Sequence record: LC918680.1
Strand: one strand, 5' to 3'
Length of the DNA: 46,345 bases
Source of the DNA: a phage
Shown: positions 37,408 through 46,276 of the stretch, piece by piece
Layout: every line of letters begins with the position of its first letter
Position numbering within the stretch: the first letter of the stretch is position 1
Program-made: the position numbers and the translations under genes
The notes under the pieces: model-generated
Told to the model about the DNA's origin: nothing
Databases searched by the model: none
What the model saw: only the letters and a program-made list of their open reading frames with translations

Positions 37408-38991
37408 TTACCCCAGCAATAGTGGATTAATGTAAATTTTATCACCAATCAGGCATGTGTAGTTTTTCTCATCAAGCATAGGAATCAAGTGGTCCTTAAT
37501 GCGAGTCATAATTCCAGCCTGAGCTTCAAAAGGTTTAACCTTGCGTGCAGCCTCATACAACGAGCGAACACCAACAACACCTTTACCATTCTTGCCCTGC
37601 TTAATCAGGATATCAACCAGCTTGTTCATCTCGGCATTGTCACCAGCATGACCAGCAGCACTAGCGGATGATAAATAAGTCTTGCTTAGTTCGTTGAAAA
37701 TCATAACCGCTTCCTGCATTGTATCCAGTTCAATCTCTCTTGACTTTTGAGGGCTGGATCCGGCTGGTGAGAACCAGTTACGAATTACGTGCAGAACAGA
37801 AGCGATGCGGATTGCTTGCTTATCAAACTTACCAAGAGCACCGCGCAACATTGTGTGAGAATACTTGCCACCATCACCAAGATGAGGCTCCATCTCTTGA
37901 CGAGCGCGGTTAAGGTAACGCATTGATGACGCGCTTACAGTAAGTTTCACTTCAACTTCATTCATAATCTCATGAACAAGACGGAAATAGTCTGCTTTCA
38001 GGCCGTCATCAATAGCCTCATAGGTTGAATCACCATTTTCATCAACAAATACACGTTCGCCAAGAAATGATTTTTCACGCACCAGAAGGAAACGCTCAGA
38101 TACACCAATACCACGCGCACCAGCATTCATAATGGCATTGATTGTTTCATCCTGAGCAATTACGGAGATGCATCCCATAGCCACAAAGCTCATGTTATTT
38201 TCTGCGTTCGCACGGGCAATTGACACATTACCTGCATCCCATGCTTTCAGCACGAGCTCGCTGTTCGTTTTCTTCGAGCCATCACCGTAAGTCATGCCTA
38301 ACAGTGAGTTGACGCTAGTAGCCTCATCAGAGATTACCGCAAAATTACCCTGGCGATTGTTGATTCGCGCAAGACCTTCCGGAGTAGTATCGGAGACAGG
38401 GAATACTATATCGCATAGCTTCTCGAGCTTCTCCTCTAAATCCTCCTTCTCCTCAAAAAGTGAAGCCATTTCAGAAGGTGATTTCTCCTGCTTCATCTCT
38501 TTAGCCAGAGCGGACAGTTTAGCCATAATCTTTTTTCGATCACGTTTACGTACTTCATTCAACCGCTCAGTCTCAGCAATCATCGGCGCAATTGATAGCG
38601 AGTTAATGGCTGATTTACCAGTTGAAGGCGGCTGACTTGTTACCACGTACAAAGATGTTGGCTGTTGGGTTCCATGATACTCGACAGTAAAACGCCCAAG
38701 CATTGCAGCAGAAACACAACCAAGAAAGTGCATGTAAACTGACGACTCAGGGAACTGAACCGAGCGAGCGATATTAGCCGATAGCTTACCAACAACATCA
38801 ATATCATTACCGAGTGAGATTACTGGATACTTATCATTACCTGTATCAATCTCGACAGGTGCTTTCCAGAACGATTGAGAATGTCGATAGCCATTGGCAT
38901 TAATAGCCACGCGAAGCGGTGGTAGGTTTTCATTGGCAGCGATTGCCATAACCTGCTCAACAGATAGTTTATCTTCGTTGAAATCAAACAT
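37408..38991 (-). CDS. P-loop NTPase (DUF3987-like), putative replication-associated ATPase
   Basis: Walker A SQPPSTGKS and Walker B-like AVISDEAT; 527 aa; boundary motif and conserved leader upstream. Confidence 0.55.
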   Translation of the reverse strand: MFDFNEDKLSVEQVMAIAANENLPPLRVAINANGYRHSQSFWKAPVEIDTGNDKYPVISLGNDIDVVGKLSANIARSVQFPESSVYMHFLGCVSAAMLGRFTVEYHGTQQPTSLYVVTSQPPSTGKSAINSLSIAPMIAETERLNEVRKRDRKKIMAKLSALAKEMKQEKSPSEMASLFEEKEDLEEKLEKLCDIVFPVSDTTPEGLARINNRQGNFAVISDEATSVNSLLGMTYGDGSKKTNSELVLKAWDAGNVSIARANAENNMSFVAMGCISVIAQDETINAIMNAGARGIGVSERFLLVREKSFLGERVFVDENGDSTYEAIDDGLKADYFRLVHEIMNEVEVKLTVSASSMRYLNRARQEMEPHLGDGGKYSHTMLRGALGKFDKQAIRIASVLHVIRNWFSPAGSSPQKSREIELDTMQEAVMIFNELSKTYLSSASAAGHAGDNAEMNKLVDILIKQGKNGKGVVGVRSLYEAARKVKPFEAQAGIMTRIKDHLIPMLDEKNYTCLIGDKIYINPLLLG

Positions 38992-40195: not shown

Positions 40196-40380
40196 TTTAC
40201 TACCTCAAACTCTCCAGGGTGGATAACTAATGGCTTGGCTTTACCATCCATTATTACAACAGTTCCATTTTCGTGTTCCATGAATACCTCGTAAACACCT
40301 CCAGGTTCAAGGCCGTAGAATTCGTATTCGTCATCGTCAAACCCATCTGTCTTACTTAGCGCTATTATTTTTACCTTCAC
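40192..40380 (-). CDS. hypothetical protein
   Basis: GTG 40380 with SD GAGGAGG 5 nt upstream (track TTG start 40422 lacks RBS); first - strand gene leaving control region B. Confidence 0.5.
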   Translation of the reverse strand: MKVKIIALSKTDGFDDDEYEFYGLEPGGVYEVFMEHENGTVVIMDGKAKPLVIHPGEFEVVK

Positions 40381-40436
40381 ATATCCCTCCTCGTTGTTGA
40401 TGAGCGAACTATAACTCCGCAATACCTAAATGTCTT

Positions 40437-40450
40437 TAGCAAAAAGTGCT
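40437..40450 (-). promoter_or_regulatory. boundary motif copy 13 (spacer variant)
   Basis: - strand TAGCACTTTTGCTA at edge of control region B. Confidence 0.4.
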
Positions 40451-41053
40451 ATTAGTTGGATTTATTTATTGTTGCAGATATTGCAATGATTAATCTTACT
40501 ATTGCACATATAACAATATTGCATCGAATGCAATGATGTTTTTGATTGTTGCGGGATTTGCAATGATTGATGTGAGGGTGAATGAATGGTGAATGAACTA
40601 CCATACAAGTTGATTTTGATTCTTGCTGAGCCAATTTGGATATACACGTTATCGAAGTTATGGTGTGTATATGAGGTGCGCTTCCGAAGAATCATACACG
40701 CCTACCACGCTAGATTACGCAATGGTTACATAATAATATCTATATATATCAACCTTTTACTATATTATTATTATTATTATATATATGTATGTATATGGTG
40801 TAGATTGGTCGTATGGATGGGTCGATAGTTTTTCTATGAAAACTACTAATTTTATCTATATAGATACATATGCATACCCCCGGCGAATCCGCGTAAAATA
40901 TTACACAGGGTAATTACACCAGCTATAGCTGGGCTGAGAGGTCAAAAAGCGTAACCAATGCAGATATAAACACAACATAACACTTGATAACGCGTATATT
41001 CATGATACCATGGTTTCATCTTAACGAAGAGCAACCAATCAGGAGTAACGAAT
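40451..41053. repeat. control region B: gene-free AT-rich divergent intergenic region, paralogous to region A; iteron-like TGCAATGAT repeats
   Basis: Same conserved blocks as region A at about 40741-40790 and 40920-40975; three TGCAATGAT copies plus further TTGCA half-sites at about 40470-40570; coordinates +/-2. Confidence 0.7.
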
Positions 41054-41575
41054 ATGTCAGAACATAAAGAAGCAGTAAGTTTGGGTGAAATCATTCGATA
41101 CATGGCGAGTCAGGCGCTCAAGTCAGAAGACAAAGTGTGCACAGTCCCTGTGACCATGATTGCTCGTCAATACTTCGGCATGAGTCGTGAGACGTTCGTA
41201 TCGCTAAGTGGTGAGGAGGTTCTACCTGGTGGTGAATACCACATGCCAAAACTAAAAGCGTCATACGTTTCAAACACCGTAAGCCGAATGCCTGAGATTA
41301 AGGCGGCTGACGTGCGCTCAAGGTTCTCACTTAGTTTTACTGACTTTGAGGGCGAGAGTGAGACATACTGCGCATCACTTAGCCTGGTTCCTGGCGCTGT
41401 AAAATCCGGCTCAAGAAGCAAGGCAGAGCAAGAGAAGGAGGCGGCTACCATTGAAAGGTTCAAGGCTCGATTGTTGAAACTATCACCAAGCGTCGCTGGT
41501 CTTGAAGGTGATGAACTTAAGGGTGCAGTATCAATGATTAACGCATACCAAGAAATGATTAAGGAGACTAAATAG
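41054..41575 (+). CDS. hypothetical early protein
   Basis: 173-aa ORF, first + strand gene leaving control region B; SD AGGAG upstream. Confidence 0.55.
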   Translation: MSEHKEAVSLGEIIRYMASQALKSEDKVCTVPVTMIARQYFGMSRETFVSLSGEEVLPGGEYHMPKLKASYVSNTVSRMPEIKAADVRSRFSLSFTDFEGESETYCASLSLVPGAVKSGSRSKAEQEKEAATIERFKARLLKLSPSVAGLEGDELKGAVSMINAYQEMIKETK

Positions 41576-42989: not shown

Positions 42990-43412
42990 ATGAAATTAAG
43001 CAAATCTCAAAGGGAAGAGTTGAAGGGCAAGTTCGGTGGTCGCTGCGCTTATTGTGGGTGTGAACTACCTGAGAAAGGCTGGCATGCTGACCATGTTGAA
43101 CCGGTGCTACGTAAATCTGAGGTATGCATGAAGGCAGCGGAGAAAGGAACTTTCAAGCTGAAGGCGACAGGTGAGTTTAATCGACCACAAGCTGATCGAA
43201 TGGAAAACCTTTACCCTGCATGTGCTCCATGCAACCTCATGAAAGCTTGCTATTCCCTTGAAATGTTCAGGGAACAGGTGTCTCTTCAAGTCGCTCGCGG
43301 GCGTAAGAGCAGCATGAATTTTCGCACGGCAGAGCGGTTCGGCCTCATCTCCATAGTGGAGGATCCAGTTGTTTTCTGGTTTGAGAAGTTTGAGCAAATT
43401 AACAAAATCTGA
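42990..43412 (+). CDS. HNH endonuclease (free-standing)
   Basis: CAYCG...HADHVEP...CAPCNLMK gives Cys-x2-Cys / H-x-D-H / Cys-x2-Cys-N HNH architecture. Confidence 0.75.
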   Translation: MKLSKSQREELKGKFGGRCAYCGCELPEKGWHADHVEPVLRKSEVCMKAAEKGTFKLKATGEFNRPQADRMENLYPACAPCNLMKACYSLEMFREQVSLQVARGRKSSMNFRTAERFGLISIVEDPVVFWFEKFEQINKI

Positions 43413-45751: not shown

Positions 45752-46276
45752 ATGAAAGGCGAAAACTTCACCAGCCATGCGCAAGAAAAGATTCGCTCTG
45801 GCAACTTCAAGGCTATGTACAACAAGAAATATTCCGACATTACAACTCTAGCCAAAAACAGAATCATGACCCCAGAACAGTTATTCAACTTGGCTGTGAA
45901 ATACTTCTCATGGGCAGAGGATAATGCAATCAAAGCGGCTGAGACGGCCAGCTTCCAGGGCGTGGTCACTGAGAGCCTTGTGCATAAGCCACGAGTATTC
46001 ACGTTAACAGGGTTCTGCCTTTACTGCGGCGTTACTTCAAGTGCCATTGAGAAATGGAGGAAGTCTGCGGGTTATGACGATGTGATGACATTCATTGATT
46101 CCGTGATTAGAGAGCAGAAGTATCAGCTGGCAGCGTCTGGCATTGTTAACCCTGGCATGATTTCCAAGGAGCTTGGAATCGACAAACCGCAGGAGATCAC
46201 TATAAGCAATAACTCTTCTGCTAACGACGTCGAAACGATGAAGGAAGCTCTGGAGTCTGTGATTAGTAAGCTGTAA
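45752..46276 (+). CDS. terS: terminase small subunit
   Basis: 174-aa ORF after terminator and extended -10, SD AAGGAGG; position immediately upstream of terL if the genome is circularly joined. Confidence 0.6.
   Translation: MKGENFTSHAQEKIRSGNFKAMYNKKYSDITTLAKNRIMTPEQLFNLAVKYFSWAEDNAIKAAETASFQGVVTESLVHKPRVFTLTGFCLYCGVTSSAIEKWRKSAGYDDVMTFIDSVIREQKYQLAASGIVNPGMISKELGIDKPQEITISNNSSANDVETMKEALESVISKL

What the first reader, a model, noticed from the sequence alone, without database searches (positions are those of the whole stretch)
40470..40570. Iteron-like array of TGCAATGAT / ATTGCA repeats at the edge of control region B
Three copies of TGCAATGAT (about 40481, 40528, 40559) plus several ATTGCA/TTGCA half-sites lie within ~100 bp; ATTGCAAT is itself palindromic. 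Region A has a different repeat family ((A/C)TGCACC) instead. Repeats of this kind are typical of replication-origin or partition/regulator binding arrays. The ORFs predicted through this stretch look spurious.
Basis: seen in the sequence. Interest (0 to 1): 0.55.

Follow-up and report, generated by a model that had tools for sequence, protein, structure and literature searches.

The report
Conserved dyad-repeat array beside phage pac cut
The TGCAATGAT repeats are real: they are halves of four small palindromic protein-binding-type sites in the best-conserved non-coding DNA of a T1-like phage, about 30 bp from where relatives make the first DNA-packaging cut, so they most likely belong to the packaging start (pac) region rather than a proven replication origin.

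Summary
TGCAATGAT occurs three times in the window, all within 86 bp (40482, 40529, 40559). The TTGCA/TGCAA density there is the genome-wide maximum (0 of 200 simulations reach it).

The window is a complete Rtp-like (T1-like, Drexlerviridae) phage genome. The array lies in a ~670-bp non-coding gap between divergent early operons.

- **Anatomy.** Each TGCAATGAT is the right half of a 15-bp dyad, TTGCR-N5-WGCAA. There are four dyads, with centres at 40479, 40509, 40526 and 40556.
- **Conservation.** The array is the best-conserved part of the gap in 13 phages from three lineages (91-95% column identity). Half-sites are kept, while the spacers of dyads 3 and 4 vary.
- **Not coding, not RNA.** It is not coding and matches no Rfam family.
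- **Link to packaging.** Two independent PhageTerm-defined pac termini in relatives (MSK, UDF157lw) map to window 40601 and 40594, which is 27-34 bp right of the last repeat. Record ends also pile up here.

My best explanation (confidence ~0.45) is that the array is the recognition or architectural arm of the pac site. It also lies upstream of the early leftward promoter.

The binding protein is unidentified. In relatives the dyad-module type tracks neither the small terminase nor the MCM-like helicase. An operator role or an origin role therefore remains possible.

The parts
40408..40413 (-). -10 hexamer (TATAGT) of the early leftward promoter P_L
   Evidence: Promoter scan. A -10-like hexamer sits at the same alignment column in 12 of 13 relatives although the surrounding sequence varies.
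40433..40452 (-). 20-nt marbox-like promoter element of P_L (ATAGCACTTTTTGCTAAAGA); one of 19 copies in the genome
   Evidence: The same repeat is described in TLS, T1 and Rtp with unknown function (PMC11447400). It forms the left border of the conserved block.
40459..40465 (+). GATTTAT heptamer, invariant or nearly so (one substitution at most) in 13 relatives; identical to the core of the P22 pac site as quoted in the TLS paper
   Evidence: Alignment A1. P22 pac GAAGATTTATCTGAAGTCGTTA is quoted in PMC11447400. The small terminase here belongs to the P22 gp3 family PF16677. A 7-mer match could be chance.
40472..40486 (.). Dyad 1: TTGCA gatat TGCAA (contains TGCAATGAT copy 1 at 40482-40490 and the palindrome ATTGCAAT)
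   Evidence: conserved in 13 of 13 relatives.
40502..40516 (.). Dyad 2: TTGCA catat AACAA (relatives: AGCAA)
40519..40533 (.). Dyad 3: TTGCA tcgaa TGCAA (TGCAATGAT copy 2 at 40529-40537); the N5 spacer varies among relatives
   Evidence: inverted repeat I1.
40549..40563 (.). Dyad 4: TTGCG ggatt TGCAA (TGCAATGAT copy 3 at 40559-40567); N5 varies and the right half-site is weaker in some relatives
   Evidence: T1 has the homologous unit TGATTGTTGCttagaaTGCAATGATTG.
40462..40571 (+). Span of the two 33-nt composite direct repeats (40462-40494 and 40539-40571, 79% identical), each holding ATTGTTGC-N6-TTGCAATGAT
   Evidence: family D1.
40574..40597 (+). G-rich block (GAGGG) followed by tandem GGTGAATGAA(T) x2; a G-rich block at this distance from P_L is present in most Drexlerviridae lineages examined (absent from some)
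40594..40601 (+). Inferred position of the pac (series-initiation) cut, with packaging proceeding rightward
   Evidence: The PhageTerm terminus of phage MSK (position 36,862, forward, p=1.6e-9; PMC8421802) maps to 40601. Position 1 of the UDF157lw record, which the authors re-organised according to their PhageTerm analysis (PMC10838988), maps to 40594. Not measured for this phage itself.
40598..40625 (+). Conserved segment right of the cut (ACTACCATACAAGTTGATTTTGATTCT); possible packaged-side arm of pac
   Evidence: Alignment A1: conserved in all ten phages other than the three Nouzillyvirus ones, which differ.
40735..40800 (.). AT-rich block (24-26% G+C) with (TAT)6 and TATATATATG x2, largely invariant in relatives; candidate unwinding element or promoter cluster
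40984..41011 (+). Rightward promoter P_R (TTGATA, 16 nt, TG-n-TACCAT) ahead of the DUF7174 gene (41054-41575)
   Evidence: found at the same column in 10 of 13 relatives; Pfam DUF7174.
45752..46276 (+). Small terminase gene (PF16677 GP3_package; phrog_606); candidate binder of the pac region
37408..38991 (-). DUF3987 (SF6/MCM-like) helicase gene in the operon driven by P_L; candidate initiator under the origin hypothesis
   Evidence: Family function from PMC4889955 and PMC11724360. 90-96% identical in four phages that share the array.

Best explanation
The array is part of the packaging-initiation (pac) region of a T1-like headful-packaging phage.

Shown: four dyad-symmetric 15-bp sites (TTGCR-N5-WGCAA, centres 40479, 40509, 40526, 40556) form the most conserved non-coding DNA of the genome. 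They are unique to this locus. In relatives, the first packaging cut maps 27-34 bp to their right (window ~40594-40601), at the end of a G-rich block plus the tandem GGTGAATGAA(T) x2. Packaging then runs rightward, towards terS and terL.

Inferred: late in infection a protein assembly occupies the dyads and the adjacent G-rich/tandem-repeat block and bends or wraps the DNA. This assembly would be the small terminase (P22 gp3 family), possibly together with a dimeric phage or host DNA-binding protein. It would position the large terminase for a fairly precise cut. The array would be the arm that is left outside the first packaged chromosome, comparable to pacL of SPP1 or the hexamer clusters of P1 pac.

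Speculative: the array also spans about -70 to -165 relative to the start of the early leftward promoter P_L. Its occupancy could therefore influence early-left transcription as well.
For: 1. The cluster is real and non-random.
2. It is non-coding and matches no Rfam family.
3. In 13 phages of Braunvirinae, Rogunavirinae and Nouzillyvirus, window 40447-40546 has 91-95% mean column identity. The flanking left gene cannot be aligned, and the rest of the gap scores 55-85%. Half-sites are kept, while the N5 spacers of dyads 3 and 4 vary. In the more divergent e4/1c the dyads persist while the inter-dyad DNA changes.
4. Physical ends: the MSK PhageTerm terminus maps to 40601. The UDF157lw record start, set from the authors' PhageTerm analysis, maps to 40594.
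5. TLS pac was mapped by a sub-molar restriction fragment to the start of its record, which lies in the same gap. The SU57 authors report a PhageTerm end in this untranslated region and state that the T1 pac site lies in the corresponding region.
6. The records of T1, Rtp, Rogue1, IMM-001, ESCO41 and FP start inside or beside the array. Six of about 50 otherwise randomly opened 44.2-kb genomes from one study break within about -170 to +360 bp of it, where about 0.6 is expected.
7. The phage has a headful-type terminase: TerS PF16677 and TerL Terminase_6C.
8. The dyad motif occurs nowhere else in the genome above chance, as expected for a single-copy cis site.
9. T1 and some TLS-like phages keep pairs of the same dyad 30-31 bp apart, just upstream of the G-rich block.
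Against: - No terminus data exist for this phage itself, and no binding data exist for any T1-like small terminase.
- The small terminase is only 62-68% identical among phages whose arrays are more than 90% identical.
- Across the family, the segment between P_L and the G-rich block carries interchangeable dyad modules. I call them Y (the motif here), X (TTATTCC..GGAATAA), Z (AGACC-N4-GGTCT) and W (TGATT/GATG repeats). Module type does not track small-terminase similarity: X occurs with terminases about 50-75% identical to each other, and Y with terminases 45-57% identical.
- The feature common to most lineages examined is the G-rich/TG-rich block, not the dyads. The core pac signal may therefore lie just right of the reported array.
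- Dyad symmetry with 10-bp half-site spacing is more typical of dimeric regulators than of known terminase sites.
- Several record starts follow the T1 convention and are not independent measurements.
Confidence: 0.45

Rival explanations
1. Operator array for a dimeric transcription regulator. A phage-encoded or host dimeric DNA-binding protein binds the four dyads and controls the early leftward promoter P_L, and perhaps the timing of early versus late expression at this divergent control region. Closeness to the pac cut would be coincidental or only loosely coupled.
For: The sites are dyad-symmetric 15-mers with conserved half-sites and variable spacers, which is the classic signature of dimeric regulators. 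The array lies directly upstream of P_L, with dyad centres about -78 to -155 from the inferred start site. Related lineages carry other palindromic modules at the same place, resembling exchangeable regulator/operator pairs. The left operon encodes two small conserved proteins that the T1 record annotates as HTH-like.
Against: No dyad overlaps the core promoter. The motif occurs at no other promoter in the genome. No flanking protein co-varies with module type: not the first left gene, DUF7174, or the two small HTH-like proteins. Those two proteins have no Pfam, NCBIfam or PDB sequence match, and a single-sequence structure model was unusable (pLDDT 42).
Confidence: 0.2
2. Replication origin. 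The dyads are binding sites for the phage initiator, for example through the C-terminal winged helix that the family literature assigns to DUF3987/MCM-like helicases. Unwinding would start in the AT-rich (TAT)n/TATATA block 170-230 bp to the right, possibly helped by transcription from the divergent promoters.
For: The repeat cluster is unique in the genome and lies near a strongly conserved AT-rich block of 24-26% G+C. It sits at the head of the operon that encodes the DUF3987 helicase. That family is proposed to be replicative and to carry a C-terminal winged helix (PMC4889955), and one member has been shown to be a 5'-3' helicase (PMC11724360). This helicase is 90-96% identical in four array-sharing phages, more conserved than the large terminase at 72-76% where a match was found.
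Against: In TLS-like phages, helicases 80-89% identical overall (C-terminal region 83-85%) sit beside different modules (X, W, Y). Meanwhile the same module occurs with helicases only 57-72% identical. The sites are dyads with 30/17/30-bp spacing, not regularly phased direct iterons. There are no DnaA boxes in the gap. No origin has been mapped in any T1-like phage. The primase, SNF2-type helicase and recombination genes lie in a different module, next to the other divergent control region near 21 kb.
Confidence: 0.15
3. No dedicated sequence-specific function. The block would be a conserved boundary sequence kept by frequent homologous recombination between mosaic modules, and the repeats would be remnants of local duplication (the 33-nt direct repeat).
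For: The genes on both sides are highly mosaic while the block is shared. Part of the repetition comes from one 33-nt duplication.
Against: The conservation is selective. Half-sites stay fixed while the N5 spacers and inter-dyad DNA diverge. The same dyad with the same 30-31-bp pairing recurs in T1 and some TLS-like phages whose surrounding sequence cannot be aligned. Virion ends map beside the block.
Confidence: 0.07

Closest known systems
pac region of T1-like phages (T1, TLS, Rtp), as mapped at low resolution
   Same: It is the same locus: the non-coding gap between the divergent early operons, 5-9 kb upstream of terS. TLS pac was mapped here by a sub-molar restriction fragment (PMC11447400). 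The SU57 authors state that the T1 pac site lies here (PMC7718038). The T1, TLS and Rtp records start here.
   Different: None of the accessible papers defines the sequence determinants. The TLS authors fixed the exact base only by resemblance to P22 pac (AGATTT). The four-dyad anatomy, its conservation pattern and its 27-34 bp offset from the PhageTerm cuts are worked out here, not in those papers.
SPP1 pac (pacL-pacC-pacR) (features from my own knowledge, not checked in a paper here)
   Same: A multi-site recognition region flanks a fairly precise first cut. One arm stays outside the first packaged chromosome, and intrinsic or induced DNA bending is involved.
   Different: The SPP1 boxes are short direct repeats and A-tracts recognised by an unrelated small-terminase family, and pac overlaps the terminase gene region. 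Here the units are 15-bp dyads, 5 kb from terS, and binding by the terminase is untested.
P1 pac site (features from my own knowledge, not checked in a paper here)
   Same: Clusters of a short palindromic motif (TGATCA/G in P1) surround the cut, with help from a host bending protein. The site is a single copy.
   Different: The P1 motifs carry GATC and are controlled by Dam methylation, and the cut lies between two clusters. This array contains no GATC (read directly), and the inferred cut lies outside the array, to its right.
P22 pac site
   Same: The small terminase here belongs to the same Pfam family as P22 gp3 (PF16677). A near-invariant GATTTAT at 40459-40465 matches the core of the 22-bp P22 pac as quoted in PMC11447400.
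   Different: As I recall it, P22 pac is a single asymmetric 22-bp site inside the terS gene, with cuts spread over about 120 bp. Here there are four dyads in an intergenic region. Only 7 bases match P22, which could be chance.
Iteron-type origins (lambda ori, plasmid and satellite origins)
   Same: Clustered short repeats lie near an AT-rich segment, in a single copy per genome.
   Different: As I recall them, iterons are direct repeats with helical phasing, usually inside or next to the initiator gene, and they co-vary with the initiator. The lambda ori iterons lie inside gene O in the annotated record. Here the units are dyads with 30/17/30 spacing, and module type does not follow the helicase.

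Membership tests
pac (packaging-initiation) site of a headful phage | Virion DNA termini or the series-initiation cut map at or next to the element | tested here: met
   Tested through relatives only. The MSK PhageTerm terminus maps to window 40601 and the UDF157lw record start (set from a PhageTerm analysis) to 40594. TLS restriction mapping and a pile-up of record ends agree. No read data exist for this phage itself.
pac (packaging-initiation) site of a headful phage | The genome encodes a headful-type terminase (small and large subunits) | tested here: met
   TerS PF16677 / phrog_606 at 45752-46276; TerL Terminase_6C at 1-1620.
pac (packaging-initiation) site of a headful phage | Single-copy cis element | tested here: met
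   TGCAATGAT occurs only here. The dyad pattern elsewhere stays at chance level.
pac (packaging-initiation) site of a headful phage | The element co-varies with the small terminase that recognises it | tested here: not met
   TerS is 62-68% identical among phages with arrays more than 90% identical. Modules X and Y each occur with terminases only 45-75% identical to one another. This lowers the claim that the dyads themselves are the terminase sites. It does not affect the claim that the region is pac.
pac (packaging-initiation) site of a headful phage | The small terminase binds the element, and the element alone directs packaging of foreign DNA | not testable with these tools
   Needs EMSA or footprinting and a plasmid-transduction assay.
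Iteron-type replication origin | Several direct repeats in one orientation with regular, helically phased spacing | tested here: inconclusive
   TGCAATGAT x3 are direct but spaced 47 and 30 bp apart. The functional-looking units are dyads at 30/17/30 bp.
Iteron-type replication origin | Adjacent AT-rich unwinding element | tested here: met
   40735-40800 has 24-26% G+C with (TAT)6, and is conserved in relatives. It lies 170-230 bp from the array.
Iteron-type replication origin | The repeats co-vary with the cognate initiator protein | tested here: not met
   The DUF3987 helicase, including its C-terminal region (alignment columns 420 to the end), does not track module type in TLS-like phages.
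Iteron-type replication origin | Replication initiates there | not testable with these tools
   No origin mapping exists for T1-like phages in the accessible literature.
Operator array of a dimeric transcription regulator | Dyad-symmetric sites with conserved half-sites and a free spacer | tested here: met
   Four TTGCR-N5-WGCAA sites. Half-sites are conserved and the N5 of dyads 3 and 4 varies in 13 phages.
Operator array of a dimeric transcription regulator | Sites overlap or closely abut a core promoter that they control | tested here: inconclusive
   The nearest dyad centre is about -78 from the inferred P_L start. No conserved promoter lies inside the array.
Operator array of a dimeric transcription regulator | An identifiable cognate regulator gene | tested here: not met
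   No flanking gene within about 6 kb co-varies with module type. The HTH-like candidates have no family or structure match.

The most novel reading that the evidence does not exclude
The array is one cassette of a family-wide, shuffled set of short dyad modules (Y = TTGCA-N5-TGCAA, X = TTATTCC..GGAATAA, Z = AGACC-N4-GGTCT, and others). These modules sit between a marbox-type early promoter and the pac cut. They would be read by an unidentified dimeric protein, either a hijacked host transcription factor or a small phage protein encoded elsewhere in the genome. That protein would couple shut-off of early transcription to activation of the pac site, acting as a transcription-to-packaging switch.
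Probability: 0.15. Interest if true: 0.7.

Novelty: new member of a known kind. Interest (0 to 1): 0.45.

Why it matters
T1 is one of the classic coliphages, and T1-like phages are notorious laboratory and fermentation contaminants and generalized transducers. Yet none of the papers I could read defines the pac site at sequence level. The TLS authors placed it by resemblance to P22.

This work ties a sharply conserved four-dyad array, a G-rich block with a tandem repeat, and two concordant PhageTerm cut positions to within about 130 bp. That turns the question of what the T1-family pac signal is into a small, directly testable deletion and footprinting problem.

It also shows that the segment next to the cut is a modular cassette that differs between lineages. 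This bears on packaging specificity, transduction and engineering of these phages. If the dyads prove to be read by a host factor or an unknown phage protein, that would be a new layer of control at a pac site.

Tried and rejected
1. **Known RNA.** Rfam at E<=1 on 40300-41150 found nothing.
2. **Coding potential.** The ORFs over the array were rejected.
3. **Promoters inside the array.** No sigma-70-like site is conserved within 40455-40600. Only P_L and P_R are conserved.
4. **DnaA boxes.** None in the gap.
Not enriched (7 found, 11 expected). Two copies lie near 21.17 kb. Not followed further.
6. **Rtp genome paper.** Not held in the library.
7. **Test against phage lambda.** I recalled from memory that T1 starts packaging lambda DNA at a site between genes P and Q. 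Short 11-13-mers matching T1's first dyad occur at lambda 27164, 33458, 39898 and 42844. These are at chance level overall and only one lies between P and Q, so the test is inconclusive.
8. **Scan of viral contigs for TTGCA-N5-TGCAATGAT.** Almost all hits were chance matches.
9. **Scan of 185,579 species' genomes for two dyads 30 bp apart.** The 80 rows displayed (120 stretches found) were scattered across unrelated taxa, with no Enterobacteriaceae site.
10. **Co-variation of module type with proteins.** I tested TerS, the DUF3987 helicase (N-terminus, core, C-terminus), two HTH-like proteins, DUF7174 and the first left gene. None tracks module type.
11. **DUF7174-anchored search.** It returned only 9 loci, too few to use.
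12. **The HTH-like protein at 37069-37404.** No Pfam, NCBIfam or PDB sequence hit, and a single-sequence AlphaFold model at pLDDT 42 was unusable.
13. **Host-factor guesses from memory** (CytR, MarR, LysR-type, FNR and others). None fits the TTGCA-N5-TGCAA geometry well enough to claim.

Full report
**What the window is.** The 46,345-bp window is a complete genome of an Rtp-like (T1-like) phage of the family Drexlerviridae.
- It opens at the large-terminase gene (1-1620, Terminase_6C).
- The small terminase gene lies at 45752-46276 (PF16677 GP3_package; phrog_606).
- The closest records are Escherichia phages ES and AN_ECEAS, 97-98% identical over the region studied. More distant relatives are IME542, Rtp, Msk, the BASEL 'Piccard' phages, Sd1 and others.

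The finding (40470-40570) lies in a non-coding gap of about 670 bp.
- To the left is a leftward operon. Its first gene most likely starts at a GTG near 40380, after the ribosome-binding site GAGGAGG. That operon includes a DUF3987 helicase at 37408-38991.
- To the right is a rightward operon that starts with a DUF7174 gene at 41054 and runs on to terS and terL.
- The same divergent gap of about 650-700 bp is present in every relative examined.

- TGCAATGAT occurs three times in the window, all on the + strand within 86 bp: 40482, 40529 and 40559.
- Counting TTGCA/TGCAA in 110-bp windows gives a genome-wide maximum of 8 here. The next best elsewhere is 5, and none of 200 first-order Markov simulations reaches 8.
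- The repeat finder also reports a 33-nt direct repeat (40462-40494 and 40539-40571, 79% identical) and a tandem GGTGAATGAA(T) x2 at 40577-40597.
- The ORFs predicted across the stretch are spurious. Variable alignment columns show no codon periodicity. Lengths differ by non-multiples of three. Nearly every frame has stops in relatives.
- No Rfam family matches.

**Anatomy.** Each TGCAATGAT is the right half of a 15-bp dyad, TTGCR-N5-WGCAA. There are four such dyads:

| Dyad | Coordinates | Sequence |
|---|---|---|
| 1 | 40472-40486 | TTGCA gatat TGCAA |
| 2 | 40502-40516 | TTGCA catat AACAA (AGCAA in relatives) |
| 3 | 40519-40533 | TTGCA tcgaa TGCAA |
| 4 | 40549-40563 | TTGCG ggatt TGCAA |

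- The centres are 30, 17 and 30 bp apart, an arrangement symmetric about 40517.5 (read).
- The pattern gives 7 strand-matches against 1.17 expected, and 5 of the 7 are in the array.
- Immediately to the left is a 20-nt element (40433-40452, minus strand). It belongs to the early leftward promoter P_L, whose -10 TATAGT lies at 40413-40408.
- Immediately to the right are a G-rich block and the tandem GGTGAATGAA(T) repeat.

**Conservation.** I aligned 13 phages from Braunvirinae, Rogunavirinae (Sd1) and Nouzillyvirus.
- Window 40447-40546 has 91-95% mean column identity.
- The adjacent left gene cannot be aligned, and the rest of the gap scores 55-85%.
- Substitutions concentrate in the N5 spacers of dyads 3 and 4 and in the DNA between dyads. 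The half-sites are nearly invariant.
- In the more divergent phage e4/1c the four dyads persist although the DNA between them has changed.
- T1 itself carries two such dyads 30 bp apart: TTGCA tggtg TGCAA and TTGCT tagaa TGCAA. The second sits in a unit clearly homologous to the window's right-hand repeat.
- This is the pattern expected of sites read by a dimeric DNA-binding protein, not of neutral DNA or a recent transfer.

**Link to packaging.** Several independent lines place the headful series-initiation site (pac) here.
1. The MSK paper reports a PhageTerm pac-type terminus, forward direction, at position 36,862 with p=1.6e-9 (PMC8421802). In my alignment this maps to window 40601.
2. The authors of the Rogunavirus UDF157lw re-organised their sequence according to a PhageTerm analysis (PMC10838988). 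I read both ends of the deposited record; its first base maps to window 40594. These two analyses come from different subfamilies and agree within 7 bp, at the end of the tandem repeat and 27-34 bp right of the last TGCAATGAT.
3. TLS pac was mapped by a sub-molar restriction fragment to the start of its record, which lies in the homologous gap (PMC11447400).
4. The SU57 authors report a PhageTerm end in this untranslated region and state that the T1 pac site lies in the corresponding region.
5. The records of T1, Rtp, Rogue1, IMM-001, ESCO41 and FP begin inside or beside the array. Some of these merely follow convention.
6. Among about 50 nearly identical 44.2-kb genomes from one study, the start points are otherwise scattered. 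Six break within about -170 to +360 bp of the array, where about 0.6 is expected.

**Who binds the dyads?** I could not identify the protein.
- Within 6-8 kb on either side, the only protein as conserved as the array is the DUF3987 helicase. It is 90-96% identical in four array-sharing phages, but 56% in T1 and 71% in TLS.
- The small terminase is only 62-67% identical in those same four phages.
- The DUF3987 family is regarded as an SF6/MCM-like replicative helicase with a C-terminal winged helix (PMC4889955). One member has been shown to be a 5'-3' helicase (PMC11724360). That made the origin hypothesis worth testing.

I therefore collected 46 helicase-anchored and 55 terminase-anchored loci from viral contigs. 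From each I extracted the segment to the right of the P_L element.
- Across the family this segment is a cassette of different short dyad modules:
  - Y is the motif studied here.
  - X is TTATTCC..GGAATAA.
  - Z is AGACC-N4-GGTCT, found in TLS.
  - Other modules are rich in TGATT or GATG.
- In most lineages examined the cassette is followed by a G-rich block about 140-170 bp from P_L.
- Module type tracks neither the helicase nor the small terminase.
  - Helicases 80-89% identical (C-terminal region 83-85%) sit beside X, W or Y.
  - X occurs with terminases about 50-75% identical to one another, and Y with terminases 45-57% identical.
- Module type also does not follow the two small HTH-like proteins that flank the helicase, DUF7174, or the first left gene.

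So the most widely shared candidate for the core pac signal is the G-rich/TG-rich block at the cut. The dyads are a lineage-variable accessory part of the same region.

**Conclusion and weights.**
- My best explanation (0.45) is that the array is the recognition or architectural arm of the pac region. It would be occupied by the small terminase and/or a dimeric accessory protein that positions the cut at about 40594-40601.
- It may also act on P_L, since it lies about 70-165 bp upstream of the P_L start site.
- The rivals are a regulator operator array (0.2), a replication origin with the AT-rich block at 40735-40800 as unwinding element (0.15), and a functionless recombination boundary (0.07).
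The repeats are real and look like protein-binding sites. They are dyads rather than iterons, and the only physical evidence available points to packaging.

**Side observation.** The 20-nt element next to the array occurs 19 times in the genome, where 0.6 copies are expected.
- In 14-16 of those copies a -10-like TAnnnT (or cataat) hexamer follows 17-19 nt later, and then a shared leader.
- The element fits the E. coli marbox consensus AYnGCACnnWnnRYYAAAY at every specified position.
- Its position and orientation are those of class II MarA/SoxS/Rob promoters (PMC3709825, PMC12052159).
- The TLS paper lists this repeat as of unknown function. No paper in the searched library links the marbox with T1-like phages.

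Noticed in passing
19 sites: 1617+, 8781+, 20168-, 20917-, 22756+, 26538+, 28539+, 29945+, 32175+, 33245-, 34511+, 35598+, 39047-, 39827-, 40435-, 41678+, 41870+, 42725+, 44140+ (start coordinates of the 18-nt match): The family-wide repeat ATAGCACnnnTTGnTAAA (19 copies, 0.6 expected) behaves as one promoter type. After the 20-mer come 17-19 nt, then a -10-like TAnnnT or cataat hexamer in 14-16 copies, then a shared leader CATCGAAACGAAA. There is no usable -35. The 20-mer matches the E. coli marbox (AYnGCACnnWnnRYYAAAY) at every specified position. It sits where class II MarA/SoxS/Rob marboxes sit (forward orientation, about -50 to -31). T1-like phages may run most of their operons from Rob/MarA/SoxS-type promoters or from a mimic. 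The TLS paper calls the repeat's function unknown.
   Followed up: partly
window 28623-31757 (+): The SNF2/Helicase_C-type helicase gene appears to be interrupted by an intein. Weak, sub-threshold Intein_splicing and HINT matches occur at the end of ORF 28623-29432 and at the start of ORF 30048-31757.
   Followed up: no
window 40735-40800: An AT-rich block with (TAT)6 and TATATATATG x2 is largely invariant across 13 phages. An AT-rich TATATA-type block sits at the same relative position in T1- and TLS-like lineages too. It could be an unwinding element, a promoter cluster or a bent segment. Several promoter-like hits in both directions fall in it.
   Followed up: partly
relatives: L165-L198 and L205-L259 (segment right of the P_L element); T1 L016/L014; TLS L017/L015: The DNA between P_L and the G-rich block is a lineage-specific cassette of short palindromic modules. 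X is TTATTCC..GGAATA..GGAATAA (T1 and many TLS-like phages). Z is AGACCGATTGGTCT x2 (TLS). L248 has TGATT-N5-AATCA. Y dyads, wherever they come in pairs, are 30-31 bp apart. Module type follows none of the flanking proteins tested.
   Followed up: partly
window 37408-38991 (-): The DUF3987 (SF6/MCM-like) helicase is 90-96% identical in four phages in which the large terminase, where a match was found, is only 72-76% identical and most neighbouring genes are 35-70% or absent. Its N- and C-terminal ends are the parts that diverge most towards T1 and TLS.
   Followed up: partly
window 40459-40465: A near-invariant GATTTAT is identical to the core of the P22 pac sequence as quoted in the TLS paper, and the phage's small terminase belongs to the P22 gp3 Pfam family. 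It could be meaningful or a chance 7-mer.
   Followed up: no
T1 record positions ~102-120 (L014) and T1-like loci L219-L226: T1-like phages carry a second, leftward-pointing copy of the marbox-like element to the right of the array. In T1 the array and the pac region are therefore bracketed by two such elements.
   Followed up: no
window 42990-43412 (+): An HNH endonuclease gene in the rightward early operon has no counterpart in the six relatives compared, consistent with a mobile homing-type insertion.
   Followed up: no
lambda (L202) 27164, 33458, 39898, 42844: Four exact 11-13-mers in phage lambda all match the same 19-nt stretch of T1's first dyad (TTGTTGCATGGTGTGCAAC). Each is at chance level on its own, but their clustering on one query segment is odd. 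It may bear on the old observation, recalled from memory, that T1 starts packaging lambda DNA at a specific site.
   Followed up: partly
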